A DNA stretch of 64,000 bases from an uncultured Holophagales bacterium (lineage in GTDB: Bacteria > Acidobacteriota > Thermoanaerobaculia > Multivoradales > UBA5704). The notes beneath the pieces are model-generated. The model ran no database searches, had not been told where the DNA came from, and saw nothing but the letters and a program-made list of their open reading frames with translations. The first letter of the stretch is position 1, and each line of letters opens with the position of its first letter. The DNA lies in NCBI GenBank assembly GCA_963842525.1, contig CAWJGT010000009.1, positions 960,001 through 1,024,000 of the forward strand, given 5' to 3'. Positions 5,421 through 62,900 of the stretch are shown here, one piece after another. A program made the translations under genes and the position numbers.

Positions 5421-7610
5421 CTAGTGGAAGTGGAACTGGACGACACGGCCGAACGCCGGGAGCCACCCCGGATCGCGGTCGAGCCCGGAGACACGGACCG
5501 GCATGGAGATGCTCGCGAGGTCCAGGACCACGTCCACGTGCGTGGTGGTGACATGGACGCGGCCGGGCCGCAGCAGCAGGAGCGGCGGCAGCTCCTCCGG
5601 CCGCGCAGGGTCGAGCCCCAGGCCCTGGGCCAGGCGCAGGCGGAGATAGGGGAGAGCGAGGGCCGTCCAGCGAGCGAGCCCGCCGTGCACGAGCCCGTGC
5701 TGCTGCGACTCGACCCCGTGCGGCTGCCGCTCACCCTTGTTTCGCAGCAAATCGACCTCGCCGCGATGCAAATCAGCCTCGATTCGCATCGCCGCGAGCC
5801 CGCTTTGATGCGAACCAGGCTCGTGCGGCTGCCACTCGACCCCGTGTGGCAGCGGCGCGACCCCGAGCGGCCCGCGCACGACCCCGCGCGGCAGCGGCGC
5901 GCCCTCGTGTGGCAGCGGCACGACCGTGTGCGGCAGCGGCACGAGCGTGTGCAGCAGCGGCAGCACCTCCATTTGCATCACAGCGGCCTCGTGCAGCACG
6001 GGCCAGGAGGCCGGCGGGCGCAGCTCATGGGTACCCGTATAGCCACGGCCGGGAGGCTCGTCGGGCTCCCGGCCGGCAAGCACCGCCAGCACGCGCCAGA
6101 CAGGGTCCGCCGCGAGATGGCCTGCCTCACCGAGGAGGCCGCGGGCGATCGCCTCCAGGACGCCCCAGGCCCCGACCCGGCTCGCGAGACGCCAGTCCTC
6201 CTCGAAGCAGTCGGGGAGGTCGAGCGACGTCATGAGGTTGATCAGGTAGAAGATACCGGCGACCTCGGTGGCGACGCCGTCCTCGAAGAGGAGGGATGGG
6301 GGTTCCTCGAACGCCTCGATCTCGTTGTCTACGGCAGGCTCATCCGTGCTGGCCTGCACCTGCTCTGCTGCCGAGAGGGGCTCGGGCATGGGCGCCGCCC
6401 TACCGACCTCCCCATCCGTTGCATCCCCCACTGTAGAGACGCCCCGTGGGGCGTCTCCGAAGCGGCGAGATCCTTCCGAAGGCCGCTGCGGATGCGCGGT
6501 CGCCTCGATGGCGTCCGGATCGGTTCGTCTATCCCCGGCGCCCGATCGGTCCTGTGGTTCATCGGGACGGCCTTGCCGCCGCGGAGACGCCCCACGGGGC
6601 GTCTCTACAGTGGGTGGTGGCGCCCCCTCTCCCGGGGGATGGGAGTGCGGATGGGAGAGGGGGTCGGGGGGTGAGGGCTCCGCGCTGCGCACGCGGCCTG
6701 GTGGTGACCGCCGGGGCCCCCCAACCTTATTTATATAGGGCGCCGGCCACTCCAGCGGCGCCCCCCCCTCCCACCACTCCCGCAGCTCCGTGGCAAAGAC
6801 GGCGCTTCGTGCCCTTGCCGGCTCCTCGAAGAGGGCCAGGGAGACGGCGAGGAGGACCCTCTGTGCCGGGGCGAGCCGGGCGGCGTCCGGGATCTCGCGG
6901 AGACGCTTCTGCCACGCTGGTTGGGGAGAGGTGGCAGAGAACGTCTGTGGCTTGGCGGATGCCACGATGGGATCCGGGGCCGTTTTACCCGCCCGACCCC
7001 CGGCGGGCGGGACGCCCGCGGTCCCAGGGGAGAGATCCGGAGCTCCGTAGGTCTGGGCGACGGTTTCGAGGATCGATAGGGCTTCGGCCTCGGAGAGAGG
7101 CTTGCAGACCTCGACGGCGCGTCCCTGCCTCGCAAGCTGATGGAGGAGGGCGGGCACGTGCGTGGGCTCGGCGGCGAGGAGCCTTGGGAGGTCCCTGGCA
7201 CCTCGGCGGCGCAGGACCTGGCTCCACCACCAGCAGCCGACGGCATTGCCGCGGGCGAGGTCGAGGGCCAGGCAGGCGAGCATCTCGGCCTCGTCGGCGA
7301 AGAGGACGGCCTCGGCGTCCGGCGGCACCGGGCCGTGGGCTGGACGGGCGGCGCGCCGGCAGAAGGTGTCGAGGGCGGTGCGGGCCGCCCGCTCCCAGGT
7401 GGGATCGGGCAGGGCCGGCCCGTTGCTCGGGAGCTTCCCGGGCAGCGGGTCGGCCATGCGGCGGACGATGAGCATGGCGGACGGCGGCAGCTCGGCGGGG
7501 TGCAGATCCGCGCTCCCCAGCCAGGCGCCCGCGGCGAGGCGGACCGCCGGCGTGTCGCCGGCGGCCGATCGCACCCGGAGCGTCCCTACCTCGGCCGTGC
7601 CTGCCACCAT
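5421..7610 (-). CDS. eCIS tape-measure-like protein with in-frame repeat insertions
   Basis: ATG 7610 lies just after the upstream stop. The C-terminus RPGRVHVTTTHVDVVLDL..VRVSGLDRDPGWLPAFGRVVQFHF resembles the CIS tape-measure family C-terminus. Adjacent to the ATPase. Confidence 0.65.
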   Translation of the reverse strand: MVAGTAEVGTLRVRSAAGDTPAVRLAAGAWLGSADLHPAELPPSAMLIVRRMADPLPGKLPSNGPALPDPTWERAARTALDTFCRRAARPAHGPVPPDAEAVLFADEAEMLACLALDLARGNAVGCWWWSQVLRRRGARDLPRLLAAEPTHVPALLHQLARQGRAVEVCKPLSEAEALSILETVAQTYGAPDLSPGTAGVPPAGGRAGKTAPDPIVASAKPQTFSATSPQPAWQKRLREIPDAARLAPAQRVLLAVSLALFEEPARARSAVFATELREWWEGGAPLEWPAPYINKVGGPRRSPPGRVRSAEPSPPDPLSHPHSHPPGEGAPPPTVETPRGASPRRQGRPDEPQDRSGAGDRRTDPDAIEATAHPQRPSEGSRRFGDAPRGVSTVGDATDGEVGRAAPMPEPLSAAEQVQASTDEPAVDNEIEAFEEPPSLLFEDGVATEVAGIFYLINLMTSLDLPDCFEEDWRLASRVGAWGVLEAIARGLLGEAGHLAADPVWRVLAVLAGREPDEPPGRGYTGTHELRPPASWPVLHEAAVMQMEVLPLLHTLVPLPHTVVPLPHEGAPLPRGVVRGPLGVAPLPHGVEWQPHEPGSHQSGLAAMRIEADLHRGEVDLLRNKGERQPHGVESQQHGLVHGGLARWTALALPYLRLRLAQGLGLDPARPEELPPLLLLRPGRVHVTTTHVDVVLDLASISMPVRVSGLDRDPGWLPAFGRVVQFHFH
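5690..6000. repeat. Degenerate 21-bp-period repeat tract, in-frame in the tape-measure-like gene
   Basis: gcagcggc recurs every 21 nt around 5890-5960, giving heptads VPLPHT/VVPLPHE/GAPLPRG/VAPLPHG. Confidence 0.7.
6427..6614. repeat. GTAG-type REP doublet (REPIN-like): perfect 33-bp inverted repeat
   Basis: CCCACTGTAGAGACGCCCCGTGGGGCGTCTCCG at 6427-6459 and its exact reverse complement at 6582-6614; each arm is itself a hairpin preceded by GTAG. Confidence 0.85.
6623..6682. repeat. About 58-bp palindromic element, family A, copy 1 (in-frame)
   Basis: CCCCTCTCCC..GGGAGTGCGGATGGGAGAGGGG..GGGGGTGAGGG; nearly identical to 38685-38742. Confidence 0.85.
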
Positions 7611-7614
7611 GCGC

Positions 7615-9915
7615 TCAGGGCCTCCAGCGCAGCCCCAGGAGGAGGGTCGAGAAGTCGATGTCCGGGCTGGCGAAGACGCGGTGGAAGTTGTAGCCGAGCT
7701 CCACCCCGAAGCCGGAGGGGAACATGTGCAGCACCCCGAAGCCGGCATTGGCCCCGGAGTCGCTCCCGCCGGGGTCGACGTCGTAGGAGCCGACGCCCCC
7801 GTTCACGAAGGGCTGCCAGAAGCCGCCCGGGAAGAAGAGCTTGGCGTTGACCGAAAGCTGATCGATCTCCGGGTCCGGCAGATCCTCCACCCCCGCGAAT
7901 TCGTGGTGGCCGTAGAGCAGCTCCAGGGTGACGCGGTCGGTGAGCCGGAATTCGAGGTCCACCATCCAGCTCAGGTCGCCGTCCGCGATATCGGCGAGGT
8001 CGCCGTGCGGCTCGTTGATGCCGGCGTGGAGGCTGAAGCCGAAGCGGCCGGTGCCGCCCGTACCGGTGGTGCCGGTGCGGCCGCCGATCCGGGCTACGGC
8101 CGTGACCTTGCGGACCTCGCCGGGCTTGAACCGCTGGGGCTTGGTGTCCAGGGCGAGCTCGACCCCTTCCAGGCCGGGCGGTATGTGGGCGTCCAGTTGC
8201 AGGAAGATCGTCTTCTCTTCGCGGGTGGGATTGCCCACCTCGAACTGGAAGCGGATCTCTCCCTGCTGCTGGAGCACGCCGACGGGGATGAGTTGGACGA
8301 TGCCGCCGATCTCTTCGTGGAAGTTGTAGGGAGGCTTGTCCGAGGGCGGCTGGCCGGTCCCGAAGCCTCGCACCTGGATGATGAGGTGGTCGCGGCCGAG
8401 CTTTTCGAGATCGGCCGGCGGCAGCAATACGTGTCCTCCCGGGTCCCGCACGACCGGCGGGTCCTGCTCGCCGCCCGGCTCCTCGCGCTGCAGGGGGGCG
8501 AAGAGCAGAGGCGCGGAGAGCGAGGCGGTCCGGACCTCCGGGCGTGGCAGGTCGGGCTGCCGGTCCAGCAGGGCCACCTGGCAGGCCGCGTCGGGGCAGA
8601 CCGCGGACTCGGCGAGCCGCGAGATGTTCTGCTGCGCCGAATGATGGCCGCTCAACCCGTAGACGTCCGACATCTGCGTGAGCTGCGCGTCGGTGGTGAT
8701 GGCCAGGATGTCGGCCTCGTCGAAGTCGGGCTTGAACGCCGGTGGCAGCACGTAGACCCGGATGCAGGGGTGACCGGTCAGCCCGATCAGGCCGGCCGTC
8801 GTCTCGATCGATTTGAGGCAGGTCCGCGCGCTCGCCGGCAGGCTGACGTTCTTGCGCAGCTCCACCACGGTCCAGTCCGGGACGCCGATGCCATAGCGGC
8901 CGCGCAGGAAGAGGAGGTTGCGGGTCTGGGGCGAGGAGCTGCTGTTGTTGAAGCACCCCTCCACCCGGAGCCTGCAGGGGTCGGCCGGGTAGTAGGAGTT
9001 GTCCTGCACGTTGCAGCGGTACGCGTCCACGTCGTTGCTGATCCAGTAGGCGGGGACGTGCGACAGCCAGACGTCGGGGGGCGGCGTGGTTACATAGCCC
9101 GTGGCCCACGTGTCGGGGATCGACCAGCCGTCCTGGCAGCCGTTGACCGGGTTGTCGGCATTGGTGACCGGCAGGTTGTTGGGGATGCTGGCGCCGTAGC
9201 CGTCGCACACCCCCGACACGCAGGTGCCGAAGTCGTTGACCACTGCCAGGGCCGCGCCCACGTCCCCCGCCGGGTTGCCGAGCAGGGCGAGGGGGATCTC
9301 GACCTCCACGGTGTAGCGCGTCGGAGCGGAGAGCTGGCGCACGGCGACCGTGGGCGTCTGCGCGGCGGGCAGCCCGGCGGTGATGTCGTTCCAGACCGGG
9401 TGGCCGCAGAAGCCCGGGTCTCCGGAGCCGTCGAAGACCGTCACCTGGACGTTTTCCAACTCCAGGTCGGCATCGAGCTGCTCCCAGCGGTGGACGATCT
9501 GGACCTTGTAGTCCTTGGCGACGTCGGCTCCCGCCCCGGCCAGGACCCCGCCACCGCTCAGGTTGGCGTCGAACTGGAAGGCGATCCGTTCACCGTTGAG
9601 CAGGAGCCCGCCGCCGAACTCGGTGCTGGTGTCGTTGACCTCGAGGAAGAAACCGAGGTAGTTGACGCCGGTCCTGGTATAGCGCTTGCTGAAGACGGTG
9701 ATGTCCTTGGACACGCCGTCCTCGTCCAGCAGCGTCTCGAAGCAGGGGCTGGCGGAGGTGAGCTGCGACGCGTCGTTCCACTCCGCTCCCTGGACGCCGT
9801 CGACGGTCACCGCGGTCCCGGTCTGCAGGCCGATCGGACAGGGGGAGGTGGCGGCCAGCGGTGGGGCCAGGGCGAGCAGGAGCGCCACGGCCGGGAGGAC
9901 AGATCGGGATCTCAT
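7615..9915 (-). CDS. Exported Cys-containing protein with a C-terminal outer-membrane beta-barrel
   Basis: Signal peptide MRSRSVLPAVALLLALAPPLAA; TVDG..EWNDA (DOMON/CBM9-like start); paired Cys; last ~145 aa are amphipathic strands (WQPFVNGGVGSY, VELGYNFHRV, LLLGLRWRP). AGGAG RBS. Confidence 0.7.
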   Translation of the reverse strand: MRSRSVLPAVALLLALAPPLAATSPCPIGLQTGTAVTVDGVQGAEWNDASQLTSASPCFETLLDEDGVSKDITVFSKRYTRTGVNYLGFFLEVNDTSTEFGGGLLLNGERIAFQFDANLSGGGVLAGAGADVAKDYKVQIVHRWEQLDADLELENVQVTVFDGSGDPGFCGHPVWNDITAGLPAAQTPTVAVRQLSAPTRYTVEVEIPLALLGNPAGDVGAALAVVNDFGTCVSGVCDGYGASIPNNLPVTNADNPVNGCQDGWSIPDTWATGYVTTPPPDVWLSHVPAYWISNDVDAYRCNVQDNSYYPADPCRLRVEGCFNNSSSSPQTRNLLFLRGRYGIGVPDWTVVELRKNVSLPASARTCLKSIETTAGLIGLTGHPCIRVYVLPPAFKPDFDEADILAITTDAQLTQMSDVYGLSGHHSAQQNISRLAESAVCPDAACQVALLDRQPDLPRPEVRTASLSAPLLFAPLQREEPGGEQDPPVVRDPGGHVLLPPADLEKLGRDHLIIQVRGFGTGQPPSDKPPYNFHEEIGGIVQLIPVGVLQQQGEIRFQFEVGNPTREEKTIFLQLDAHIPPGLEGVELALDTKPQRFKPGEVRKVTAVARIGGRTGTTGTGGTGRFGFSLHAGINEPHGDLADIADGDLSWMVDLEFRLTDRVTLELLYGHHEFAGVEDLPDPEIDQLSVNAKLFFPGGFWQPFVNGGVGSYDVDPGGSDSGANAGFGVLHMFPSGFGVELGYNFHRVFASPDIDFSTLLLGLRWRP

Positions 9916-32519: not shown

Positions 32520-32618
32520 CTCCTCGTTTACTTCGAATGTAGCGAACTTGCTCTGAGTGTCGCCTAAGCTTGTAGAGGATCTCTCGCCGGCGAGAGCCGT
32601 CGAATGCGGAGCGCAAGG

Positions 32619-35712: not shown

Positions 35713-35719
35713 AAACATT

Positions 35720-36937
35720 CTATTTATGGCTGTCAAGTGAAGCACCGCATCGCTCCCGCAGCCCCGCCAGCGCCGGCAGCGCCTCCAGGATCGACTGCGT
35801 GTCCGCCCCGAAGTCGATCAGGCAGGCGGCCTCGTCGGCGCCGATGGCGCGCAGGCGGTCGATCATCTGGGCGCATTTGTCCGGATGGCCGAGGAGCGAC
35901 AGGCTGGCGTAATAGTTCTCGAACGCCACGCCCAGCACCGTGTCCACGTCCTCCCGTCGCACCTCTCCTGTTGCTCCTCCGGCGAGGAAGCTGTACTGGT
36001 CGAGATAGGTGCGCAGGTAGGCGATCATCGGGGCGCGGACCTTCTCGCGCACGGCGTTCTCGTCGTCTCCCACATAGGTGTGGAGCATCACCGCGACCTG
36101 TCCGGCTTCGGGGTCCAGGCCCGCCGCGGCGCGGGCTGCGCGGTAGCGGGCGATCTGCGCGGCGAGCACCGGCAGCGGCTGCACGATGGTGAGGACATGG
36201 GCGCCGATGGCGCCAGCCCGGTCCCAGGTCGCCGGGCTCGTCGAGGCGGTCACCCAGAACGGCAGCTCCGCCTGCACCGGCCGCGGCAGCACCCGCACGT
36301 CGATCTCGCGGCCGTCCACACCGGTCTGGCGGACGGCCTCGCCGCGCCAGAGCCGGCGGATGGTCTCGATCCCCTCGAACATCCGCTCCTTGCGGTCCGC
36401 GAACGCCTCCGGATTGAGGGCGAAATCGGTGGGGTGCCATCCCGAGGCGAAGGAGACTCCGGCGCGGCCGTGCGAGATGTTGTCCACCACGGCCCACTCC
36501 TCGGCCACCCGCAGGGGATTGTGCAGGGGGAGGACGACGCTGCCGGCGCGGATGCCGATGTGCTGCGTCATGGCGGCGAGATGGGCACCGAGCACCGAGG
36601 GGTTGGGGTAGAAGCCGCCGAACTGGCCGAAGTGCCGCTCCGGGGTCCAGACCGCGTCGAAGCCGTGCTCGTCGCCAAAGCGCGCGGTCGCCAGGAGCAG
36701 CTCGTAGCTTTCGGCAGGGGTCTTCGATTCCCCCTCGGAAAAGAAGAACAGGCTGAAGCGGATCGGCCGGTCGGAGCCTGCGGGCTCGGCGAGGCCGGGC
36801 GCCGGTGGGGAAGGCTGTGGAGCCGTCCCTGCCGGCGGGACGACGGCGTCAAGCCCTTTCTTCTTGAGCCGCCGGAGGAGGAGCTCGCGCTGCTCGGGGC
36901 TCAGGCCGGCCAGGCGCTTGGAGAGGTCATCCGCCAT
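35720..36937 (-). CDS. Luciferase-like flavin monooxygenase (natural-product type) with an N-terminal docking helix
   Basis: MADDLSKRLAGLSPEQRELLLRRL; [65 protein letters not shown]. Confidence 0.9.
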   Translation of the reverse strand: MADDLSKRLAGLSPEQRELLLRRLKKKGLDAVVPPAGTAPQPSPPAPGLAEPAGSDRPIRFSLFFFSEGESKTPAESYELLLATARFGDEHGFDAVWTPERHFGQFGGFYPNPSVLGAHLAAMTQHIGIRAGSVVLPLHNPLRVAEEWAVVDNISHGRAGVSFASGWHPTDFALNPEAFADRKERMFEGIETIRRLWRGEAVRQTGVDGREIDVRVLPRPVQAELPFWVTASTSPATWDRAGAIGAHVLTIVQPLPVLAAQIARYRAARAAAGLDPEAGQVAVMLHTYVGDDENAVREKVRAPMIAYLRTYLDQYSFLAGGATGEVRREDVDTVLGVAFENYYASLSLLGHPDKCAQMIDRLRAIGADEAACLIDFGADTQSILEALPALAGLRERCGASLDSHK

Positions 36938-39900
36938 GAGCGCCTTCTTCCAGCTCCATCTCTTCGGCGAGGAGGCGTTCCAGCTCCGCGGGGGAGAGGC
37001 CCTCGATCTCGTCCAGGATGTGGTCCACTTCGGCGAGCGCCTCCGCGCCCAGCCGCTGTGCCTCCACCCCGCGGGCGAGCCCGGCCACGGTCGGTGCCTC
37101 GAAGATCGCGCTCATCGAGAGGTCGACGTCGAACGCCTTGCGGATACGGGTGACGATCTGGATGGCCGTCAACGAGTTGCCCGCCAGCTCGAAGAAGTTG
37201 TCGTCGACGCCCACGGGCTCGATCCCCAGCAGCTCCTGCCAGATGCGGGCGATACCCGCCTCGACGTCGCTGTTCGGCGCGGTGTAGGGCGTCGAGAGCG
37301 CCGGCCGCGGATGGCCGCCCATGCCTGCGTCCGGCTGCTGGGCGAGCAGGTTGGCGGTCAGCGAGTTGTGGTGGGCGATGACGGTCACGAGGTCGCCGGT
37401 CGAGACGATGACCCGCGGCGCACCGGTGGCGAGAGCCCGCGCGAAAGCCTCCAGGGCCTCGCTTTCGTCGATGCCGAAGAGCTCCAGGGACCGCTTGAGC
37501 TCGGCCTGCATGCCGGCCGGGCCGCCGCCGAGCTGCTCCTGCCATTCCTCCCAACGGAACGAGCCCCAATCGATCGCCACGACCGGCAGGCCGCCCGTTG
37601 CCCGCTGTCCGGCGGCGAAGGCGTCGAGGAAGTTGTTGGCGGCGCAGAAGTCCACCTGCCCGAGGCCGCCGGTCACCGCGATGGTCGACGAGAACAGGGC
37701 GACGAAGTCCAGAGGGATGCCGTCCAATGCCGCGGCCAGCGCCCGGGTGCCCTCGACCTTGGGACGGAGGACCGGCGCCGAAGCCTCCGGGGTCTTGAGC
37801 TGGATCAGGCCCGCGCCCGGGACCATGTCGACGTGGAGCACGCCGTGAATGTCGCCGAACCGTTCGAGCGTCCGGGCGACAGCCTCCCGCGCGCCCTCCT
37901 CGTCCGCTGTGTCGGCTGGAACGAGCAGCACCTCGCCGCCTGTCGCCTCGATCTCACGTACGGTCCCCACGGCCCGCGCCACCGGGTCGTGAGAGCCGTT
38001 GCCGGCCGAAGCGGCGAGCAGGTCGTCCCAGCGTTCGCGGTCCGGGAAGGCGGGCGGCACGGCCAGGGCGATGCGAGCGCCGAGGTTGCGGACCAGGAGC
38101 CGCGCGAAGACCTGGCTCGTGAGATCGAGCCCGCCGGTGATGAGGTAGACGCCGCCCTGGCGGAGGGCCGCCGGCCGCGAGAACCGCTCGTCGAGCGGCA
38201 CGGCTTCCCACCCCTGCACCCAGCGGTGCCGGCCCCGGAAAGCCACGATCGGATCGGTGGCTCCGCCGGCCAGCTCGGCGATCAGGCGGTCGGCCAGCTC
38301 TCGTTCCAGCGTAGAAGACGAAGGCGGCGTCACCTCGAAGGAGCGGAAGGCGACCTGGGCCTGCTCCTGGGGCACCACCCGGCAGAGGCCGAGAGCCAGG
38401 GCCTTGTCGGGATCGATCGCCTCGTCGCCGGTCACGGGATGGAGCCGGTCCGCCACCGCGCCGATCTGCACCCCCCCGGCAGGAGCCTCCTCAGCCATCG
38501 CCTGGGTCAGATAGAGCAGGGACCAGAAGGAGCGCTCGCGGTCGACAGAACTTCCTGAGGTGATCCCCCAGAGGTGGAGCGCGCGGAGGCCCTCACCCCC
38601 CTGGCCCCCCTCTCCCATCCGCACTCCCGATCCCCCGGGAGAGGGGGGAAAAGACGCGGCAAGAGAGCTTTCGGGTTGGGGGCTCCCCTCTCCCGGCGGT
38701 TGGGAGTGCGGATGGGAGAGGGGTCGGGGGTGAGGGCTCCGCAGCAACGCATCGTAGTCCTTGCGCTCGCCGGGGCGCAGCGCAATCGTCCCATCCTCAC
38801 GGACCTCGAAACGCTCGCCAGGGATTACGGCGAGGGCCGTCGCTCCCCGCTCCCGCAGCCGCTCGACGATCCGCCGGCCCAGGCCGTCCTCATCCAGGAA
38901 GACCAGCCAGGACGAGCCCGCGATGTCGGCCGGCGGCTCGATCCGTTCCTCCTGCCGCCAGGAAGGGAGATAGAACCATTTTTCGAGCGGCTCCTTAGTC
39001 AACCCGCCCGTCGGCGCCGTGCCGAGCGGGTCGGCCAGAGGAGCGCCTGGAGCCGCCTGGTGCGATGTGCCGGGCTCGATCCAATAGCGCTGCCGCTCGA
39101 AGGGATAGGTAGGGAGCGTCACGCGCCGCCGGCGCTCGGTCGAGGAGGAGAACGCCTGCCAGTCCACGGCTGCACCGGCATTCCACAGCCGGCCGAGAGC
39201 GTGGAGCACGCGCGAGAGGTCCGAGACCTCCTCGGCCGACTCTCGCGGCCGGCGCAGCGACGGCACCGCGACCCGGGCCGTTCGGTCCCCCGGCATCTGC
39301 CCGGCGAGCGTCGTCAGCGCCTGCCCGGGCCCGACCTCCAGCAGCACCCGGTCGGGATCGGAGAGCAGCTCGGCGAGGCCGTCGCCGAAGCGGACCGTCT
39401 GCCGGATGTGCCGCACCCAGTAGGCCGGATCGGTCGCCTCCTCGGGCCGGATCCATGTCCCGGTCACGTTCGAGAGATACGGGATCTGCGGCGGCCGGAG
39501 CGCGACCCGGCCAACCCGTCCGGTGAAGGGTCCCAGGATCGGGTCCATCATCGCGGAGTGGAAGGCGTGCGACGTGTGGAGACGGGTGCACTCGACCCCC
39601 TCCGCATCGAGCCGCACGCGTAGCGCCTCGACCGCCGTTTCAGGGCCGGATACCACGCAGAATTCCGGGCCGTTGACTGCGGCAAGCGCGAGCCCTTCGC
39701 CGACCTCCGCCAGCTTCGCCGCCACCTCGGCTTCGGGCTGCGGAACCGCCAGCATCGCGCCGCCTGGCAGGCCCTGGATCAGCCGGCCGCGCGCCGCCAC
39801 CAGGGCAAGGGCATCCTCCAGCGAGAAGACCCCGGCCAGGCAGGCAGCCACGTATTCGCCGACGCTGTGGCCGAGCATCGCCGCCGGCCGCACCCCCCAG

Positions 39901-41805
39901 GACATCCAGAGCCGGGCGAGCGCGTATTCGACGACGAAGAGCGCCGGCTGGGTCAGCTCCGTCCGTTCCAGCCGCTGTGCCGCCGACTCCCGGTCCGCAG
40001 AGGGATAGAGCACCTCCCGCAGGTCGAGGCCGAGATGCGGCCGAAGGATCTCCGCGCAGCGGTCGACCTCAGCGCGGAAGACCGCCTCGCCCCGGTAGAG
40101 CTCCAGCGCCATGTCCGGATGCTGCGATCCCTGGCCCGGGAAGAGAAAGACGACCGGCCGCTCGTGGTCGCCTGCCGCCGCCGTCGCCGTCCGCGCCGGA
40201 TCGAGCGAGCGCAGAGCGGCCACGACCTCGGCGGCATCGCGGCCGACCACGATCTGCCGGTGCGGAAATGAGCGCCGTCCCGTCTGCAGGGTCCAGGCAA
40301 TATCCGCGAGAGTGCTTTCCCCCCTCTCCCGGGGGGTTGGGAGTGAGGATGGGAGAGGGGGGCTAGGGGGGTGAGGGTCCAAAAACGCCGCCAGATTCGC
40401 CGTCATCGCCTCCAGCGCCGCCGAAGTCTTCGCGGACAGTGGGAGCACCTGCCACGGCCGCGAGGCTCCCAACGGTGCGGAGGGCGCGGGAGCCTCCTCC
40501 AGCACCACATGCGCATTGCTGCCGCCGACCCCGAACGAGCTCACACCGGCCCGCCGCGGCCCACCGCCTTCCGGCCACTCGCGGAGCCTGGTGTTGACGA
40601 AGAACGGGCTTACCGCGAAATCGATCTCCGGATTGGGCTTTTCGAAGCCGAGGCTCGGAGGGATCAGCCCGTTCTCCAGGGAGAGCACCGCTTTGATCAA
40701 CCCGGCGACGCCGGCCGCGGCGTCCAGATGGCCGATGTTGGTCTTGACCGACCCCAGGGCGCAGAACCCCCGGCGCGCTGCTCCCCGGGAGCGGAAGGCG
40801 CGGGTCAGCGCGGCCACCTCGATCGGATCGCCCAGGCGGGTGCCCGTGCCGTGGGCCTCCACATAGCCGATCGTCTCGGGCTCCACCCCGGCGACCCCCA
40901 GGGCTTCGGCGATCACCTCGGCCTGGCTGTCCAGGCTGGGTGCGGTATAACCGACCTTGCCGGAGCCGTCGTTGTTGGTGGCCGAGCCGCGGATCACCGC
41001 GCGGATGCGGTCGCCGTCCCGCAGAGCGTCGGCGAGCCGCTTCAGGGCCACGATCCCCACGCCGTCGCCGAGCACCGTGCCGCGCGCCTCGGCGTCGAAA
41101 GCACGGCAGTGGCCGTCCGGCGAGTAGATGCTCCCCTCCTGGTAGAAATAGCCGACCTTCTGCGGCAGATTGACCCCGACCCCGCCGGCCAGGGCCATGT
41201 CGCACTCGCCGTCGAGCAGCCCCTGGCACGCCACATGGACGGCCACCAGAGACGTCGAGCAGGCGGTCTGCACCGCGAAGCTCGGCCCCCGCAGGTTGAG
41301 GCGGTAGGAAACCTGGGTGGTGAGGAAGTCCTTGTCGACGCTGATCCGCCCCTGGATGCCGCCGACCGACATCATCAGGTCGTGGTTGGACAGCAGGTTG
41401 TAGAGCAGATACGAGCTCAGGTTGGCGCCGCCGTAAACGCCAATCCGGCCGGCGAAGCGCTCCGGGTCGCAACCCGCGCCCTCCAGGGCCTCCCAGGCGC
41501 ACTCCAGGAACAGCCGGTGCTGCGGGTCCATGAGCGCCGCCTCGCGCGGCGTCAGGCCGAAGAAGGATGCGTCGAACAGCTCGATCCTCTCCAGGTACGG
41601 CTTGGCGCGCACATACGCGGGGTCTCGCCATACCGTCTCTGGGACGCCGGAGGCTGCGAGCTCCTCGTCGCTGAAGAAGGTGATGGACTCGACGCCGTCG
41701 CGCAGGTTCTCCCAGAACCGCTCGAGGCTGGGAGCGCCGGGGAAGCGGCCCGCCATGCCGACGATGGCGATCGCGTTGGGATAAAGGTCGTTCGAACTCG
41801 CTCAT
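36927..41805 (-). CDS. Type I PKS module KS-AT-KR(degenerate)-ACP; frameshift in the first codons near 41790
   Basis: KS VQTACSTSL, EAHGTGT, NIGHL; AT GHSVG and HAFH (malonyl type); KR ITGGLDLTS and GQVDFCAAN; ACP FFELAGNSL. ATG 41805 after GGGAG; NAIAIVG precedes MAGRFPG. Confidence 0.93.
38589..38742. repeat. Inverted pair of family A palindromic elements, in-frame in the PKS
   Basis: Copies at 38589-38647 and 38685-38742 in opposite orientation encode PHPRPLSHPHSQPPGEG..PPSPGGSGVRMGEGGQGGEG. Confidence 0.85.
40319..40378. repeat. Family A palindromic element, in-frame in the KS-AT linker
   Basis: CCCCTCTCCCGGGGGGTTGGGAGTGAGGATGGGAGAGGGGGGCTAGGGGGGTGAGGG encodes PHPPSPPLPSSLPTPRERG. Confidence 0.85.
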
Positions 41806-52191: not shown

Positions 52192-52310
52192 GCGCGAGGT
52201 AATCCGAGTCGAGGCCCGCGAGAGGGCCTCCTACCCAAAGGAGTGCGCGAGGGTGGGAGGCGAGCCGCGCGGTCTTCCACTATCCTAATCCTAATGGCGG
52301 AGGAGCCTGC

Positions 52311-54244: not shown

Positions 54245-54382
54245 CGAAGGCCCCCGGTCCCGCGACCCCCCTGTGCTATCCTTCCGTGCAAGGAAGGGGG
54301 CGGGGGTCGCGCTTCCTTCTTGCCTTTTGCCCGGGATGCGGAATAGGATTTTCCGGAGAAACGATCCGAAAGGGAGCATGCC

Positions 54383-55180
54383 ATGAGCCAGCCAGCCGTC
54401 GCGGCGCTCGCGCCTCTGCCCTTCGAGCTCGTCTACGACGACGGAGAGCCTTTGGAGACCGAATGGCATACCTGGGAGCTTCCCCTGCTCCGGGAGCTGA
54501 TCTGCCAGGTCATGGAGGAGCAGGGACGGACCGACTTCTATGCCGGCATGAACATGTTCGTCTACTACTCGGTGGAGCAGGCGCGGGAGGTGGCGTTGGA
54601 GGTGAGGGAGGGGAAGAAGCCGCGAACTGCCTTCCGGGGTCCGGACGTCTTCTGGGTGGGCGGCATCAGCCGGCGCAAGCGGCAGGCCTGGGTGTCGTGG
54701 GAGGAGGGGGGGCGCCTTCCGGACCTCATCGTCGAGATGGCGTCCCAATCGACCGCGGAGATCGACCGCACCGTCAAGAAGGATCTTTACGCGCGGGTCT
54801 TCCGGACGAAGGAGTACTTCATCTACGACCCGAAGGCGGGCGATCTGGAAGGCTTCGATCTGGCGCTCCGGGCCTATCAGCCGAAGGTTCCCGATGAGCA
54901 GGGGCGGCTCTGGAGCGCACAGCTCAGAGCCTTCGTGGGCGTCTGGCACGGTGCAGTGAAGGATAAGGAGTACGACTGGGTCCGGCTGTTCCGTCCTGAT
55001 GGGAGCTTGGTGCCCACGGCGGACGAACGTGCTGAGGCAGAACGCGAGCGTGCCAAGGCGGCGGAGCAACGGGCCGGGACCGCCGAGCAACGGGCCGAGG
55101 CGGAACGCGAGCGGGCCGAAGCTGCGGAGGCCGAGCTGGCCCGTCTGCGGGCGCTGCTGGAAGTGTCAAAAATCCCCTGA
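54383..55180 (+). CDS. Uma2/DUF820 family endonuclease-fold protein with a C-terminal coiled coil
   Basis: YDDGEPLETEWH, NMFVYY, FRGPDVFWV, PDLIVEMASQST..D, EYFIYDP; ERAEAE repeats. Confidence 0.9.
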   Translation: MSQPAVAALAPLPFELVYDDGEPLETEWHTWELPLLRELICQVMEEQGRTDFYAGMNMFVYYSVEQAREVALEVREGKKPRTAFRGPDVFWVGGISRRKRQAWVSWEEGGRLPDLIVEMASQSTAEIDRTVKKDLYARVFRTKEYFIYDPKAGDLEGFDLALRAYQPKVPDEQGRLWSAQLRAFVGVWHGAVKDKEYDWVRLFRPDGSLVPTADERAEAERERAKAAEQRAGTAEQRAEAERERAEAAEAELARLRALLEVSKIP

Positions 55181-56356: not shown

Positions 56357-56756
56357 GGACCACTGGGAGCCACCGCAGTGAGCGTCCATGGTCCTGTGGT
56401 GGCTCCTGCCGGTGCCGCGGGACCGTTGCGCGCCACCGCAGTGAGCGTCTATGGTCCCGTGGTGGCTCCTGCCGGTCCCGCGGGACCGTTGCGCGCCACC
56501 GCAGTGAGCGTCTATGGTCCCGTGGTGGCTCCTGCCGGTCCCGCGGGACCACTGCGCGCCACCGCAGTGAGCGTCTATGGTCCCGTGGTGACTCCTGCCG
56601 GTCCCGCGGGACCGTTGCGCGCCACCGCAGTGAGCGTCCATGGTCCTGTGGTGAATCCCGCCGGTCCCGCGGGACCGCTGCGCGCCACCGCAGGGAGCAT
56701 CCATGGTCCCGTGGTGAATCCTGTCGGTCCCGCGGGACCACTGCGTGCCACCGCAG
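56357..56756. repeat. Tandem array of a 63-bp unit, about 6.3 copies
   Basis: GGACC starts at 56357, 56420, 56483, 56546, 56609, 56672 and 56735; most junctions carry the palindrome GGTCCCGCGGGACC; no unique spacers. Confidence 0.92.
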
Positions 56757-56800: not shown

Positions 56801-56903
56801 CGCCCGGCGATGAATCGCCGGGCTAGGAATGGCGCCCCATGAATGGGGCTTTGAAGCCGGGTTTACCCGGCGCTGTTCCTAGCCCGGGCATTCATGCCCG
56901 GGC
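56801..56903. repeat. Nested palindromic REP-like doublet overlapping the NRPS stop codon (may also act as terminator)
   Basis: GCCCGGCGATGAATCGCCGGGCTAGGAA ... TTCCTAGCCCGGGCATTCATGCCCGGGC, with inner hairpins GCCCCATGAATGGGGC and CCGGGTTTACCCGG. Confidence 0.7.
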
Positions 56904-59900: not shown

Positions 59901-62900
59901 TGTGCTGCCGGCGATAATGGCCTCGACGTCGGGCGTGCGCGCTACCTGCTCCTCGACGAGGCGGTGGATCGTCGCCGCCTGCGTCTGTGTGGCGGCGGTG
60001 TCGTTCCATTCCAGGAGCCGCCGATGCCGCTCGGCCTCGGTCTCCAGGGGAAGATCCGCGACCGATTGCTCGGGAGTGGCGAGAATCCCCGCGATCAACG
60101 TCCGGAGCTGAAGCGCCCACCGCTGGACCGTCGGCGGGTCGAACAGGTCGGTGTTGTATTCGAAGCGCCCGCCGATCTCCTCCGTTCCCTCGACGAGGTC
60201 GAGCGTCAGGTCGTAGCGCGCCGCGCCGCTTCCCACCTCCAGCGGACGCAGGCTCAGGCCCGGAAGGTCCAGGCTGCTGCGCGGGGTGTTCTGGAGGGAG
60301 AACATCACCTGGAACAGGGGCGGCCGGCTGAGGTCGCGCTCGGGCTTCAGCTCCTCGACCAGCCGTTCGAAGGGCAGCTCCTGGTGGAAGAGCGCGCCCA
60401 GGGTGACCTCGCGGACGCGGCGCAGGGCTTCGGCGAAACTCGGCCGCCCGGACAGATCTGTGCGTAGCACCAGCATGTTGGTGAAGAGCCCGATCAGCGG
60501 CTCGGCTTCGGCCGATCCGAGGCCGGCCACGGGGGAGCCGGCGGTCACGTCCTCGCGGCCGGTGAGACGGTGGAGAAGGATCTGGAAGGCCGCGAGGAGG
60601 GTCATGAAGAGCGTGGCCCCGGTGCGCTGGGCGAGCGCCCGCAGGCCTTCCGTCTCGTCGCGGCCGAGCGCGAAGGGGACCGAAGCGCCGCGCCAGGTCT
60701 GGACCGGCGGCCGAGGGCGGTCCGCCGGCAGGTCCAAAGGCGCGAGGTCGCCCGCGAGCTGGCGGCGCCAGTAGTCGAGCTGGGCTTCGAGGATGTCGCC
60801 CTGGAGCCAGCGGCGCTGCCAGGCGGAGAAATCGGCGTACTGGATCGGCAGATCCGGCAAGGGGGACGGCCGGCCTGCGGCGATGGCGGGGTAGAGAGCG
60901 CCAAGCTCGCGAAGCAGGACCCCCATCGACCAGCCGTCGGCGACGATGTGATGGAAGGTGAGGAGGAAGACGGCGCCCCCCCGGCTCTGCACGACCAGCA
61001 GGGCCCTCCAGAGCGGACCGCCCGCCAGGTCGAACGGCCGGACAGACTCGATCGCTGCGAGGCGCCGCGATTCGGCTTCCCGCAGCTCCTCCGGGAGAAT
61101 GGAGAGATCGATTCGTGGAAGGGGCCGCTTCGACGGCGGATGGACCTCCTGGGTGGCTCGGCCGTCCACCGCCGGGAAGGTGGTGCGCAGCACCTCATGC
61201 CGGCGCTCGATCTCGCCGAGGGTGGCTTCCAGGACTGCGATGTTCAGGGTGCCGGTAAGCTGGACCGCGAGCGGTACGTTGTAGGCGGCGGTGCCGGGAT
61301 CGATCCGGTCGAGGAACCAGAGGCGCTGCTGGGCGAACGAGAGGAGGCGCTCCTCGCCGGGGGACACGGGCCGCAGCGGGGGAGGCGAGCCGGCGCCGGC
61401 CTCAGCGGCCTCGATGGCCTCCAGGATGCCCGCGAGCCCGGCCGGCGTAGGGCTCTCGAAGAGCTGCCGCAGCGGCAGAGGCACGGCGAATTTCTCGCGC
61501 AGGCGGGCGGCCAGGCGGCTGGCGAGGAGCGAGTGGCCGCCGAGCGCGAAGAAATCGTCATGGGCTCCCACCTGCTCGACGCCGAGGAGGTCGGCGAAGA
61601 GGCTGGCCACCGTCTCCTCGGCCGGCGTCCGCGGAGACACATACCCATGCCGTTCCATGGCCTCGCTGGGCTCCAGGCGGGCCAGCGCGCGGCGGTCCAC
61701 CTTGCCGTTCGGGGTGAGAGGCATCCGTTCTAGGAGAAGCCAGGCCGAAGGCACCATGGGCTCGGGGAGCCGTTCCTTCAAATGAGCGCGCAGGATCCCC
61801 GGGGTGGCGTCCGTGCCCTTCGGCACCACACAGGCCACCAGCCGCCGGTCGCCCGGTGAGACCTCGCGGGCCAGGACGGCGGCTTCGCGCACCGCGGGGT
61901 GGCTGGCGAGCGCCGCTTCGATCTCTCCCAGCTCGATCCGCACGCCGCGGACCTTCACCTGCTCGTCGAGCCCGGCCGAGGAAGTCGATCGCGCCGTCCG
62001 GCCGCCAGCGGGCGAGGTCGCCGGTCGCATAGAGCCGGCCTCCCGCGTCCTCCGGTCCGGCGAAAGGATCGGGGACGAAGCTCTCGGCCGTGAGGTCCGG
62101 CCGGCCGCGGTAGCCGCGTGCCAGCCCGATGCCGCCGACATGGAGCTTCTCCGGGGACGCCGATCGGGACCGGGTGCAGGGAGCGGTCCAGGAGCCGGAC
62201 CTGGAGGTTGGAGATCGGGCGGCCGATCGGCGGGTTGATCGCTCCAGTGGGAACGGGGCCGGCGGTGGTGACCACGGTGCTCTCGGTGGGGCCGTAGTGG
62301 TTGACCAGGTGGATGGGAAGGTCGGGGCCGCGGTGGAGGCGGTCGCCTCCGGTGAGGAGAACCTCACCCCCTGTCCCCCTCTCCCATCGCCCCCCCTGCC
62401 ACCGGGAGAGGGGGAACGCGGGCGATGCCATGAGGGCTTCGGCGAGCGGGGTGGGAATGAAGGCGTGGGTGATGCGCTTGCGGACCAGGAGATCGGCCAG
62501 GGCCTCGGGATCGAGAGAGACCTCGGTGGGGACGAGATGGACCTCGGCTCCGGCGGCGAGATAGGGCCAGATTTCCCAGACCGAGGCGTCGAAGCCCAGA
62601 CCGGCGAGCTGCGTGGCGCGATCGCCCGGCCTTACCTGGTAGGTCTGGAGGTGCCAGGTGATTAAATTGGCGAGGCCGGCGTGGGTGATCTCGACGCCTT
62701 TGGGCGTCCCGGTCGATCCGGAGGTGTAGATCACGTAGGCCAGGGAGCGGGGATCGAGATTGGTCTCTGATACCTGGCCTTCGAGCCCGTCCTCCAGGTC
62801 CGTCAGAACCGTGGCTGCGTCCGCATCCTCCAGAATGACCGCCGCCCGCTCATCCGGGGTGCCGGGATCGAGAGGCAGATACGCCGCTCCGGCCAGGAGC

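What the first reader, a model, noticed from the sequence alone, without database searches (positions are those of the whole stretch)
6623..62414. A roughly 58-bp palindromic element found five times, always in-frame inside proteins
Seen: copies at 6623-6682, 38589-38647, 38685-38742, 40319-40378 and 62362-62414 share CCTCACCCCC..CCCCTCTCCC..GGGAGAGGGG. They lie in three unrelated genes (eCIS, PKS, NRPS), in both orientations, giving PHPxPLS..GEG or PLSR..GEGGxGGE peptides. I saw no intergenic copy in the window. Known: Rickettsia palindromic elements insert into ORFs, whereas REPs are mostly intergenic. Inference: a mobile repeat family that adds peptide loops to megasynthases and structural proteins, mobilised in trans by an enzyme not encoded here.
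Basis: partly seen in the sequence, partly recalled or inferred. Interest (0 to 1): 0.78.

Follow-up and report, generated by a model that had tools for sequence, protein, structure and literature searches.

The report
Small DNA repeat translated inside genes
A short GC-rich DNA repeat, built like the BoxC "triplex motif" repeats of E. coli and mostly found between genes in related bacteria, sits in frame inside three large genes here and adds floppy proline- or glycine-rich loops, a behaviour already known from Rickettsia and some other bacteria.

Summary
Five copies of a ~55-75 bp GC-rich element lie at the stated coordinates. All five are in frame inside genes confirmed by homology: a type I PKS (three copies, two as an inverted doublet), an NRPS adenylation domain, and a conserved protein of a contractile-injection-system locus.

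Orthologues or homologues lack the insert at the doublet site and at the NRPS site, so these are DNA insertions. AlphaFold models both PKS inserts as disordered loops.

The element is more than a palindrome. It has three blocks (CCCTCACCCC / CCCCTCTCCC / long loop / GGGAGAGGGG), the block design of E. coli BoxC/PIT/TMECO "intrastrand triplex motifs", but with an 18-20 nt loop.

The family is abundant in Thermoanaerobaculia and Holophagales (Acidobacteriota) assemblies, as single units and as 125-216 bp inverted doublets. There it is mostly intergenic: 17 of 26 assessable sites, against 4 clearly in frame. "Always inside proteins" is therefore a feature of this window, not of the family.

In-frame repeats of this kind are already known (Rickettsia RPEs, intragenic REPs). 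I read it as a new, long-loop variant of a known kind that is tolerated in loops. How it spreads is unknown.

One point is unexplained: the element peptide is far better conserved between orthologues than the linker around it.

The parts
6623..6682 (-). Copy 1, single unit. Read from its C-rich strand as PSPPDPLSHPHSHPPGEGA in the central variable linker of the 729-aa locus protein.
   Evidence: orthologues P0004 and P0005 carry the same peptide in the same linker
38589..38647 (+). Copy 2, one arm of the inverted doublet. Read from its G-rich strand as PPSPGGSGVRMGEGGQGGEG (PKS residues 1037-1056).
38685..38742 (-). Copy 3, the other arm of the doublet. Read from its C-rich strand as SPHPRPLSHPHSQPPGEGS (PKS residues 1007-1025).
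38589..38742 (.). Inverted doublet (copies 2 and 3 with a 37-bp spacer), a long imperfect palindrome. It adds about 49 residues between the AT and KR regions.
   Evidence: DNA fold -61.5 kcal/mol, z -7.05; the site is empty in 8 of 8 aligned homologues, including three ~80%-identical orthologues; pLDDT <50 over PKS residues 1012-1054
40319..40378 (-). Copy 4, single unit in the KS-AT linker. Read from its C-rich strand as DPHPPSPPLPSSLPTPRERGE (PKS residues 460-480).
   Evidence: 94% complementary to copy 2 over 62 nt; pLDDT <50 over residues 463-479; orthologues P0150 and P0156 carry the element in the opposite orientation in the same loop
62362..62414 (+). Copy 5, single unit with a divergent loop, in the NRPS A domain. 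Read from its G-rich strand as [19 protein letters not shown] (residues 529-547).
   Evidence: this loop is 14 residues longer than in LgrA and 10-15 residues longer than in 108 of 120 homologous A domains
5421..7610 (-). Host gene 1: a conserved hypothetical protein (729 aa) of the contractile-injection-system locus. The start at 7610 is inferred from the upstream gene's stop at 7615-7617.
   Evidence: 167 homologues, many full length; no Pfam or NCBIfam family; neighbouring genes annotated
36927..41756 (-). Host gene 2: a type I polyketide synthase, KS-AT-KR-ACP, 1609 aa from the first ATG.
   Evidence: Pfam; recognisable KS, AT and ACP active-site motifs in the translation (motif identities recalled)
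61955..64000 (-). Host gene 3: an NRPS module (C-A). It runs off the window and is interrupted by a 1-base frameshift near 62147, after which it continues in ORF 56892-62141.
   Evidence: Pfam; sequence at the shift

Best explanation
The five copies belong to a family of short, non-autonomous, GC-rich DNA repeats. Each unit has a C block (CCCCTCTCCC), an 18-20 nt C-rich loop, the complementary G block (GGGAGAGGGG), and a third unpaired block (CCCTCACCCC, which reads GGGGTGAGGG on the G strand) 2-5 nt away.

This is the block design of the BoxC/PIT/TMECO 'intrastrand triplex motif' repeats of E. coli, with a much longer first loop.

The family is abundant in Thermoanaerobaculia and Holophagales (Acidobacteriota). 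It occurs as single units and as inverted doublets of 125-216 bp, and lies mostly in short intergenic spacers.

It spreads as DNA by a mechanism that is unknown and not encoded in this window.

Its composition leaves five of six reading frames open. The C strand reads Pro/Ser/Leu/His-rich and the G strand Gly/Glu/Arg-rich. A copy can therefore persist inside a gene if it lands in a length-variable surface loop or inter-domain linker, has a net length that is a multiple of three, and avoids the one frame holding TGA. Such copies are read through as disordered loops.

The window looks 'all coding' because it is filled with giant, loop-rich genes that tolerate such inserts, not because the element seeks ORFs.

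Shown here: the repeat family, its in-frame position, the empty orthologous sites, and the intergenic majority in relatives. Inferred: mobility in trans, translation of the inserts, and their near-neutrality.
For: Repeat and design:
- There are 5 copies against 0 expected.
- The CTCACCC block was not part of my database pattern. It lies within 20 nt upstream in 65 of 91 long-loop matches, against 227 of 20000 control windows counting either strand.
- The published TMECO pattern shares the blocks (PMC4666352, section 16).

Distribution:
- 55 loci carry units of this design. By my hand tally, 44 are Acidobacteriota: 36 Thermoanaerobaculia or Thermoanaerobaculaceae, 5 Holophagales and 3 other.
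- 21 are inverted doublets, counting the window's own.

Context:
- Outside the window, 26 sites have at least 600 nt on both sides. 17 are not spanned by an ORF, 4 are in-frame coding and 5 are unclear.
- Flanking genes are ordinary ones that abut the element.

Insertion:
- The doublet site is empty in 8 of 8 aligned PKS homologues. Three of these are ~80% identical in KS and AT.
- The A-domain loop is 10-15 residues shorter in 108 of 120 homologues.
- Five more distant PKSs have no insert in the KS-AT loop.

DNA level rather than peptide level: the same element gives PLSHPHS..PGEG, PPLPSSLPTPRERGE, PPSPGG..GEGGQGGEG or [13 protein letters not shown] depending on strand and frame.

Selection for frame: the four insertion sites of this element, plus two doublets of other repeat families in the same genes, all keep the frame. 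By my arithmetic, (1/3)^6 is about 0.001 if the lengths were unconstrained.

Loops: pLDDT is below 50 exactly over both PKS inserts, between confident helices and strands, while the AT core is above 90.

The same behaviour is seen elsewhere:
- In-frame copies in NRPS A domains (L037, L041), an NRPS C domain (L079) and an Anaerolineales biotin carboxylase (L048).
- Element peptides in 6 of 359 fetched homologues, against 0 of 362 reversed controls.
- An NRPS and a protein kinase among the 5 library hits to the doublet peptide.
Against: - No transposase, no target-site duplication and no terminal tag were found, so 'mobile' rests on presence/absence and copy number alone.
- A purely passive passenger does not explain the eCIS-locus protein. 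The element peptide is 20 of 22 and 21 of 22 identical to orthologues, while the 40 flanking alignment columns are 8/35, 7/35, 4/38 and 3/38 identical.
- A passive passenger also does not explain why orthologous PKSs carry the element in the opposite orientation in the same loop.
- The window has 4 of 4 sites in coding sequence against 4 of 26 elsewhere. By my own post hoc hypergeometric arithmetic this is about 0.003. The source genome may therefore differ from its relatives, and I could not retrieve it.
- Translation of the inserts is not shown.
- One host gene (the NRPS) has a frameshift about 70 codons downstream of copy 5 and may be broken.
- At copy 5 the element replaces the conserved 'LR' before LLTGGD, so it is not a clean addition.
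Confidence: 0.7

Rival explanations
1. The element keeps a nucleic-acid-level role even inside genes. As a hairpin, triplex or G-quadruplex-forming DNA or RNA structure it could pause replication, transcription or translation at domain boundaries. Alternatively, its sequence could be kept uniform by gene conversion between copies. The protein merely tolerates the encoded loop.
For: - The element peptide is 20-21 of 22 identical between orthologues whose surrounding linker is only about 10-20% identical.
- All three blocks are invariant in the five window copies.
- The copies sit at inter-domain linkers and at the variable loop before the YTSGSTG motif of A domains, repeatedly: L037, L041 and P0363.
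- The G strand carries four or more G runs.
- In E. coli, TMECO forms a stable triplex in vitro and marks unstable loci (PMC4666352: abstract, sections 18 and 20).
Against: - In E. coli no promoter, terminator or in vivo triplex signal was found for these motifs (PMC4666352: introduction passages and section 20).
- The doublet is absent from three close orthologues, so it is dispensable.
- I had no orthologous DNA to test synonymous sites.
- Independent insertions into the same unalignable linker would mimic conservation.
Confidence: 0.15
2. This is an RPE-like element specialised for protein-coding genes: it preferentially inserts into or survives in ORFs and is a regular source of new peptide loops.
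For: - 4 of 4 sites in the window are coding.
- NRPS and PKS genes are recurrent hosts in other assemblies.
- Five of six frames are open; the frame with TGA is never the one used.
Against: - 17 of 26 assessable sites in relatives are intergenic and only 4 are clearly coding. Restricted to Acidobacteriota loci these are 15 and 3 of 23.
- Only 5 proteins among 1.84 billion library representatives match the doublet peptide at E<=0.001, and three of them are short ORFs with no Pfam domain.
- A random 55-nt stretch at 70% G+C is also open in about 4 of 6 frames (my arithmetic), so open frames need no special explanation.
Confidence: 0.08
3. The repeated peptides are functional protein motifs selected at the protein level, for example His/Pro-rich or Gly/Glu-rich binding or docking loops. 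The DNA similarity would then be a by-product.
For: The peptide is conserved in the orthologues of the eCIS-locus protein. Similar GEGGQGGEG ends are seen in several proteins.
Against: - The same DNA is read on both strands and in different frames, giving unrelated peptides.
- Most family members are intergenic.
- The inserts are modelled as disordered.
- Close orthologues lack the doublet.
Confidence: 0.04
4. The pattern is an artefact: mis-assembly of repeats, or decaying pseudogenes in which in-frame status means nothing.
For: Two apparent 1-base frameshifts lie in the same gene clusters: in the NRPS near 62147, and at the PKS 5' end near 41780-41805. The element contains long C and G runs, which are prone to length errors.
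Against: - Host ORFs continue in frame with orthologous sequence on both sides of every copy.
- The PKS is open for 1609 codons with third-position G+C of 0.87.
- In-frame copies occur in independent assemblies from different projects.
Confidence: 0.03

Closest known systems
BoxC / PIT / TMECO intrastrand triplex motif repeats of E. coli and other Proteobacteria (Holder et al. 2015, PMC4666352; I read sections 15, 16, 18 and 20 part 1, plus passages)
   Same: - One C block (CCCTCNCCC) and two G blocks (GGGNGAGGG) on one strand, with the same block sequences.
- Multi-copy and highly conserved.
- Found in either orientation and also as closely spaced inverted pairs.
- No associated transposon or function known.
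   Different: - The first loop is 18-20 nt and has its own conserved sequence, against 3-6 nt. The published pattern finds 0 copies in the window, but it does find the Pseudomonas and Cupriavidus hits of my scan.
- The host is Acidobacteriota rather than Proteobacteria.
- TMECO is reported as always intergenic in E. coli MG1655, whereas here 5 of 5 copies are read through in genes.
- Common descent is not shown; the block design could be convergent.
Rickettsia palindromic elements (RPEs; Ogata et al. 2000 and 2002). I saw these only as summarised in passages of PMC10969869 and PMC3733652.
   Same: A short palindromic repeat inserted in frame in unrelated genes, encoding a peptide that the host protein's fold tolerates.
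   Different: - RPEs are about 100-150 bp and occur in AT-rich Rickettsia.
- Nearly half of RPE copies are in ORFs, against a minority here.
- I made no sequence comparison.
GTAG- and CGTC-tagged REPs / REPINs mobilised by RAYTs, including their intragenic copies (Di Nocera et al. 2013, PMC3733652; passages and Additional file 3)
   Same: - Mostly intergenic.
- Single units and inverted dimers.
- A minority sits in frame in ORFs and encodes 20-80 residues.
- The paper's Additional file 3 even lists a REP dimer inside a Pseudomonas syringae NRPS adenylation protein.
- Two true GTAG-tagged dimers lie in frame in the same window genes.
   Different: The element studied here has no GTAG or CGTC tag and carries a third unpaired block. 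No RAYT gene was seen in the window or near relatives' copies.
Bacterial MITEs with intragenic copies (ERIC and others; review PMC10969869, passages)
   Same: The doublet form is a 125-216 bp imperfect palindrome without coding capacity of its own, and it can form in-frame fusions.
   Different: No target-site duplication is evident and no parent insertion sequence is known.

Membership tests
BoxC / PIT / TMECO triplex motif | One C block CCCTCNCCC and two G blocks GGGNGAGGG in series on one strand | tested here: met
   5 of 5 copies match CCCTCNCCC-N10-30-GGGNGAGGG-N0-9-GGGNGAGG, against 0 expected.
BoxC / PIT / TMECO triplex motif | Loop lengths of the published pattern (first loop 3-6 nt, second loop 3 nt) | tested here: not met
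   The published pattern gives 0 matches in the window. The first loop is 18-20 nt. The same pattern does match 24 of the 115 fetched loci, namely the Pseudomonas, Cupriavidus and similar hits.
BoxC / PIT / TMECO triplex motif | Intergenic location (always intergenic in E. coli MG1655) | tested here: not met
   In the window 5 of 5 copies lie inside ORFs. In relatives, 17 of 26 assessable sites are intergenic.
BoxC / PIT / TMECO triplex motif | Also occurs as closely spaced inverted pairs | tested here: met
   The doublet at 38589-38742, and 21 doublets in total counting the window's.
BoxC / PIT / TMECO triplex motif | The G-rich strand folds into an intrastrand purine-motif triplex | not testable with these tools
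   The A and T/A positions of the two G blocks are mirror-related, as a triplex needs. This is my reading of the sequences; no triplex folding tool was available.
Rickettsia palindromic elements | In-frame insertion into ORFs of unrelated proteins | tested here: met
   PKS, NRPS and the eCIS-locus protein.
Rickettsia palindromic elements | A large share of copies lies inside ORFs | tested here: not met
   4 of 26 assessable sites in relatives are clearly coding. The source genome could not be examined.
Rickettsia palindromic elements | Sequence relationship to an RPE family | not tested
   No RPE sequence was at hand. The 70% G+C composition makes homology unlikely (inference).
REP / REPIN with RAYT | A GTAG or CGTC tetranucleotide at one end of the hairpin | tested here: not met
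   The alignment of the five copies with flanks shows no such tag. By contrast, the two other repeat pairs in the window do carry GTAG.
REP / REPIN with RAYT | Inverted dimer (REPIN) organisation | tested here: met
REP / REPIN with RAYT | A cognate Y1 transposase (RAYT) gene in the genome, flanked by the repeat | tested here: inconclusive
   None was found in the window ORFs scanned. None was found in 95 of 119 candidate ORFs flanking copies in relatives. Whole genomes were not available.
MITE | Terminal inverted repeats | tested here: met
   The doublets are long imperfect palindromes whose pairing extends 10-14 nt outside the CTCAC block.
MITE | Target-site duplication | tested here: inconclusive
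   I saw no direct repeat in the 14-nt flanks of 21 doublets, but the exact ends of the element are not defined.

The most novel reading that the evidence does not exclude
The element is a DNA or RNA structural module (hairpin, triplex or G-quadruplex-forming) whose sequence is actively maintained even inside protein-coding genes. It could be kept by selection for a nucleic-acid-level role at domain boundaries of megasynthases, such as pausing or recombination, or by continual gene conversion or re-insertion at the same loops. That would account for the element staying about 95% identical at the peptide level in orthologues whose surrounding linker has diverged to 10-20% identity. It would also account for orthologous PKSs carrying it in opposite orientations in the same KS-AT loop.
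Probability: 0.15. Interest if true: 0.8.

Novelty: new variant of a known kind. Interest (0 to 1): 0.5.

Why it matters
- **Range of triplex-motif repeats.** The finding extends the BoxC/TMECO design to Acidobacteriota and to a long-loop form. The published search, which allowed loops of 1-6 nt, could not have seen this form. It also shows that such repeats can be read through in genes.
- **Practical annotation.** The inserts mark permissive loops in PKS and NRPS domains: the KS-AT linker, the AT-KR region, the stretch before the YTSGSTG motif, and the loop before LLTGGD in A domains. They also explain odd Pro/Gly-rich segments in megasynthases predicted from metagenomes, and short hypothetical ORFs called across intergenic copies.
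- **Open biology.** The unusually strong conservation of the element inside a fast-evolving linker is a concrete, testable hint. It suggests that these repeats are either homogenised or under sequence-level selection.

Tried and rejected
1. **AT-domain swap cassette.** Copies 4 and 2, the most similar pair, flank the AT domain. Identity to three orthologues is nevertheless even across the regions: KS 80-85%, AT 81-83%, KR 70-74%. There is no sign of a swap.
2. **Target-site duplications.** None was evident at 21 doublets.
3. **Known RNA families.** The Rfam gathering scan of the window hit only Acido-Lenti-1, at a different repeat. Permissive scans around copies 1-3 gave only far-sub-threshold matches to eukaryotic microRNA hairpin models.
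4. **Direct similarity to E. coli.** blastn of copy 4 against all complete E. coli genomes found no match. The link to BoxC therefore rests on block design, not on alignment.
5. **A mobilising enzyme nearby.** Pfam found no transposase in the window ORFs scanned or in 95 ORFs flanking relatives' copies. I left out 24 of the 119 candidate ORFs by hand: 8 from the non-Acidobacteriota locus L039, those already scanned, and some overlapping antisense ORFs.
6. **Finding the source genome.** None of the 115 loci matches the window at more than about 77% identity.
7. **Degenerate extra copies in the window.** None was found.
8. **Prior description.** Six literature searches found no description of this family or of triplex-motif repeats inside genes. 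The supplement of PMC4666352 could not be searched, so its genome lists may bear on the taxonomic range.
9. Searches failed on a frame or length slip and were corrected.
Full report
**1. Is it there?**

Yes. The five copies are at the stated coordinates.
- GGGAGAGGGG occurs 10 times against 0.82 expected.
- The stem-loop-stem pattern gives exactly five matches against none expected, and so does a three-block pattern.
- A sensitive search with the copies themselves found no further or degenerate copy in the window.

Aligned in one orientation, the unit reads CCCTCACCCC(C), then 2-5 nt, then CCCCCTCTCCC, then an 18-20 nt C-rich loop (ATCCGCACTCCCAACCCCC in copies 1-4, divergent in copy 5), then GGGAGAGGGG.

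Only the second and last blocks pair. As single strands the units form a 10-12 bp stem, and one of the five folds no better than shuffled sequence (z -0.47 to -2.98). Copies 2 and 3 face each other across 37 bp and together fold as one long hairpin (-61.5 kcal/mol, z -7.05).

**2. Are the copies really inside genes?**

The window is about 70% G+C, so long ORFs occur by chance. I therefore relied on homology.

*PKS.*
- ORF 36927-41756 (minus strand) is a KS-AT-KR-ACP polyketide synthase.
- Copy 4 is residues 460-480, in the KS-AT linker.
- Copies 3 and 2 are residues 1006-1057, between AT and KR.

*NRPS.*
- ORF 61955-64000 (minus strand) is an NRPS C-A module.
- Copy 5 is residues 529-547, inside the A domain.

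*Copy 1* was the doubtful one.
- Its ORF has no Pfam or NCBIfam family, and codon periodicity fades around it.
- The upstream gene ends at 7615-7617, so the gene most likely starts at 7610.
- The 729-aa product has 167 homologues, many of them full length, in diverse bacteria.
- The alignment shows conserved N- and C-terminal parts joined by a hypervariable linker, and copy 1 lies in that linker.
- The gene sits in a contractile-injection-system locus, with sheath, tube, baseplate, Pvc16_N, AAA ATPase and eCIS_core genes.

**3. Are they insertions?**

*Doublet site.*
- Three orthologous PKSs (P0150, P0153, P0156) are 80-85% identical to the window protein in KS and 81-83% in AT.
- They run straight from ...KDYDLLMKETRxxxxT to RALHLWNV.
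- The window protein has about 49 extra residues there. Five more distant homologues are also empty at this site.

*A-domain site.*
- The loop is 14 residues longer than in the solved LgrA structure sequence.
- It is 10-15 residues longer than in 108 of 120 homologous A domains; 76 of these differ by exactly 11, and the remaining 12 differ by 0-9.
- The element also replaces the usual 'LR' before LLTGGD, so it is not a clean addition.

*KS-AT loop.*
- Five distant homologues have no insert.
- P0153 has an unrelated 14-residue filler.
- P0150 and P0156 carry PPRPAGREGVGEGGRGGEG-like peptides.
- tblastn against the collected element copies identifies these as the same element read from the opposite strand (E about 1e-6 and 1e-5). 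None of 362 reversed-sequence controls hit.

*Structure.* An AlphaFold model of PKS residues 380-1100 was built on a 32-sequence alignment (mean pLDDT 74, pTM 0.66).
- The AT core is above 90.
- pLDDT falls below 50 exactly over residues 463-479 and 1012-1054, between confident helices and strands.
- This is a prediction. It is consistent with tolerated surface loops.

**4. What kind of element is it?**

A text search for the block sequences led to Holder et al. 2015 (PMC4666352). I read the abstract, sections 15, 16, 18 and 20 (part 1), and passages.

What the paper reports:
- It describes the E. coli BoxC/PIT element, renamed TMECO. The pattern is CCCTCNCCC N3-6 GGGNGAGGG N3 GGGNGAGGG.
- It was found 3610 times in 262 proteobacterial genomes.
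- In MG1655 it is always intergenic and has 23 copies, with inverted pairs at five places.
- No link to transposons was found.
- It is associated with locally unstable loci.

How the window element compares:
- It has the same three blocks in the same order.
- Its first loop is 18-20 nt rather than 3-6 nt.
- The published pattern finds none of the five copies, while a relaxed-loop version finds exactly the five.

The third block is not an accident of my alignment. It was not in my database pattern, yet 65 of 91 long-loop matches have CTCACCC within 20 nt upstream. In controls, 227 of 20000 windows have it on either strand.

I found no alignment-level similarity to E. coli. The relation is one of design, and common descent is open.

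**5. Distribution in other genomes**

The hits fall into two classes:
- Classical short-loop TMECO-type motifs in Pseudomonas, Cupriavidus, Cyanothece and others. 24 loci match the published pattern.
- Long-loop units of the window's design. By my hand tally, 55 loci carry them and 44 are Acidobacteriota: 36 Thermoanaerobaculia or Thermoanaerobaculaceae, 5 Holophagales and 3 other. The other 11 (Anaerolineales, Chloroflexota, Armatimonas, a deltaproteobacterial MAG and others) have the same blocks with different loops.

Twenty-one sites are inverted doublets of 125-216 bp, counting the window's own. I saw no target-site duplication.

None of the loci is the source genome; the best match is about 66-77% identical. 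Three things point to a Thermoanaerobaculia-like acidobacterium as the source:
- source-given names of homologues such as P0153, P0148 and P0132;
- the taxa that carry the repeat;
- the Acido-Lenti-1 hit.

**6. Coding or intergenic?**

Of 61 sites, 31 had too little flank to judge. Of the 26 sites outside the window with at least 600 nt on both sides:
- 17 are not spanned by any ORF with 240 nt open on each side;
- 4 are in frame, with coding periodicity on both sides (L037, L041, L048, L079);
- 5 are unclear.

Restricted to Acidobacteriota loci, the counts are 15, 3 and 5 of 23.

Pfam confirms the four coding cases:
- a doublet and a single unit just before the YTSGSTG motif of NRPS A domains (L037, L041);
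- a unit in an NRPS C domain (L079);
- a variant unit in the ATP-grasp domain of an Anaerolineales biotin carboxylase (L048).

In L019, L026 and L053 the unit lies upstream of the first domain and is probably 5' of the gene.

Pfam on 95 of 119 candidate flanking ORFs shows ordinary genes that abut the elements, and no transposase. The 24 ORFs left out are listed under Tried and rejected.

The family therefore behaves like REPs and BoxC, mostly filling short spacers, with a minority read through in genes. The window's 4 of 4 coding sites differ from the 4 of 26 elsewhere. By my post hoc hypergeometric arithmetic this is about 0.003. The window is also about 90% coding (my rough estimate) and is dominated by giant multi-domain genes.

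**7. How common are translated copies?**
- tblastn of all 362 proteins held at that point against 83 element copies hit 9 proteins: the 3 window proteins and 6 of 359 others. The six are P0004 and P0005 (two sites each), P0148 (a doublet), P0150, P0156 and P0305.
- A full HMMER pass with the 54-residue doublet peptide over 1.84 billion representative proteins found 5 at E<=0.001.
- These five are a 3146-aa NRPS with the doublet directly before YTSGSTG, a Ser/Thr kinase with it in the C-terminal tail, and three short ORFs without Pfam domains, which may be gene calls across intergenic copies.
- Translated copies are therefore real but rare.
- In G-strand readings only the two frames that avoid TGA are seen (GGEG or GVR).

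**8. Mechanism**

The best-supported account is a non-autonomous DNA repeat that spreads by an unknown route. It survives inside genes only where three conditions meet: a length-variable loop, a net length divisible by three, and an open frame.

The four insertion sites of this element keep the frame. So do two doublets of other repeat families in the same genes (section 9). This argues that the host genes are under selection.

Two observations are not explained by a passive passenger.
- The element peptide in the eCIS-locus protein is 20 of 22 and 21 of 22 identical to orthologues P0004 and P0005. The adjacent 40 alignment columns are 8/35, 7/35, 4/38 and 3/38 identical.
- Orthologous PKSs hold the element in opposite orientations in one loop.

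Possible causes are independent insertions into the same permissive loops, decay of an ancestral doublet to different arms, homogenisation by gene conversion, or selection on the DNA or RNA structure. Without the orthologous DNA I cannot choose among them.

I tested whether the copies flanking the AT domain mark a domain swap and found no sign of one.

**9. Other repeats in the same genes**

Two further families lie in frame, and both are GTAG-tagged hairpin dimers.
- One is at 6433-6457 (+) and 6584-6608 (-), next to copy 1 in the same linker.
- The other is at 59495-59518 (-) and 59594-59617 (+), inside the downstream NRPS A domain just before YTSGSTG. One arm of this pair is the window's only Rfam hit, Acido-Lenti-1 (41.3 bits against a gathering score of 37).

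GTAG-tagged REPs and their in-frame intragenic copies were described by Di Nocera et al. 2013 (PMC3733652, passages). That paper's Additional file 3 lists a REP dimer inside a P. syringae NRPS.

**10. Novelty**

In-frame short repeats are known:
- RPEs, which I saw only as summarised in PMC10969869 and PMC3733652;
- intragenic REPs;
- intragenic ERIC elements.

Triplex-motif repeats are also known. What I did not find in print is:
- this long-loop acidobacterial family;
- any triplex-motif repeat read through in genes;
- its recurrent presence in PKS and NRPS loops.

The supplement of PMC4666352 could not be searched. I rate the finding a new variant of a known kind, of moderate interest.

Noticed in passing
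window 6422-6619 (cores 6433-6457 + and 6584-6608 -): An inverted pair of GTAG-tagged hairpins (GTAG AGACGCCCC GT GGGGCGTCT C), REPIN-like, lies in frame in the same linker as copy 1. It is read as TVETPRGASP and GDAPRGVSTV. The first arm is absent from orthologues P0004 and P0005. The same repeat occurs as a pair in locus L030.
   Followed up: partly
window 59492-59620: A second GTAG-tagged hairpin dimer lies in frame in the NRPS A domain (ORF 56892-62141, residues ~841-884), just before YTSGSTG. One arm (59574-59617, minus strand) is the window's only Rfam hit, Acido-Lenti-1 (RF01687, 41.3 bits). This suggests that this 'sRNA' family is, at least in part, a REP-type DNA repeat.
   Followed up: partly
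window ~62140-62150 and ~41780-41805: Two apparent single-base frameshifts. In the NRPS A domain the reading GVPGE.. shifts at GGAGAAGCTCC, and the protein continues in ORF 56892-62141. At the PKS 5' end an ATG at 41805 is out of frame with the KS start. These are either real lesions or homopolymer errors of the assembly.
   Followed up: partly
window 5822-5962 (also 5675-5968): A 21-bp tandem repeat (6.7 copies, 77% matches) encodes VPLPH-type heptads in the second variable region of the eCIS-locus protein. At this position orthologues P0004 and P0005 carry a second, G-strand-read copy of the element (IPPLPEEGRGWERGPGGE).
   Followed up: partly
window 56357-56756: A 63-bp tandem repeat (6.3 copies, 92% matches) lies between the end of the NRPS gene and the next gene. 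It contains internal inverted repeats.
   Followed up: no
window 2225-2936: Repeats of 81, 84 and 27 bp lie in the region upstream of the eCIS_core (DUF4157) domain, which maps to about 1906-2128 on the minus strand. The real gene boundaries here were not resolved.
   Followed up: no
window 1-32367 (minus strand), 32568-33644, 48970-52230: - A complete-looking extracellular contractile-injection-system locus: Pvc16_N, two sheath genes, tube, GPD, spike, gp25, baseplate J, Tail_P2_I, AAA ATPase and eCIS_core.
- A divergent sigma-54 activator next to it.
- A class II lanthipeptide synthetase (DUF4135 + LANC_like) between the PKS and NRPS genes.
   Followed up: no
window 54347-55177; L044 2842-3771: A Uma2-family putative endonuclease gene lies in the window, and another lies beside an element copy in L044. 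These are the only nuclease-like neighbours seen. With two cases, this may well be coincidence.
   Followed up: no
L048 2989-3035: In an Anaerolineales assembly, a variant unit (same three blocks, palindromic loop) is in frame in biotin carboxylase, read as SPPSPIGALPDGRGDGGEG, between the VPG and GYPLLIKAS motifs of the ATP-grasp domain. In-frame tolerance is therefore not confined to Acidobacteriota or to secondary metabolism.
   Followed up: partly
window 34001-36000: This is the lowest-G+C stretch of the window (0.617). It contains ORFs without Pfam matches, lies between the sigma-54 activator and the luciferase-like monooxygenase gene, and carries no copy of the element.
   Followed up: no
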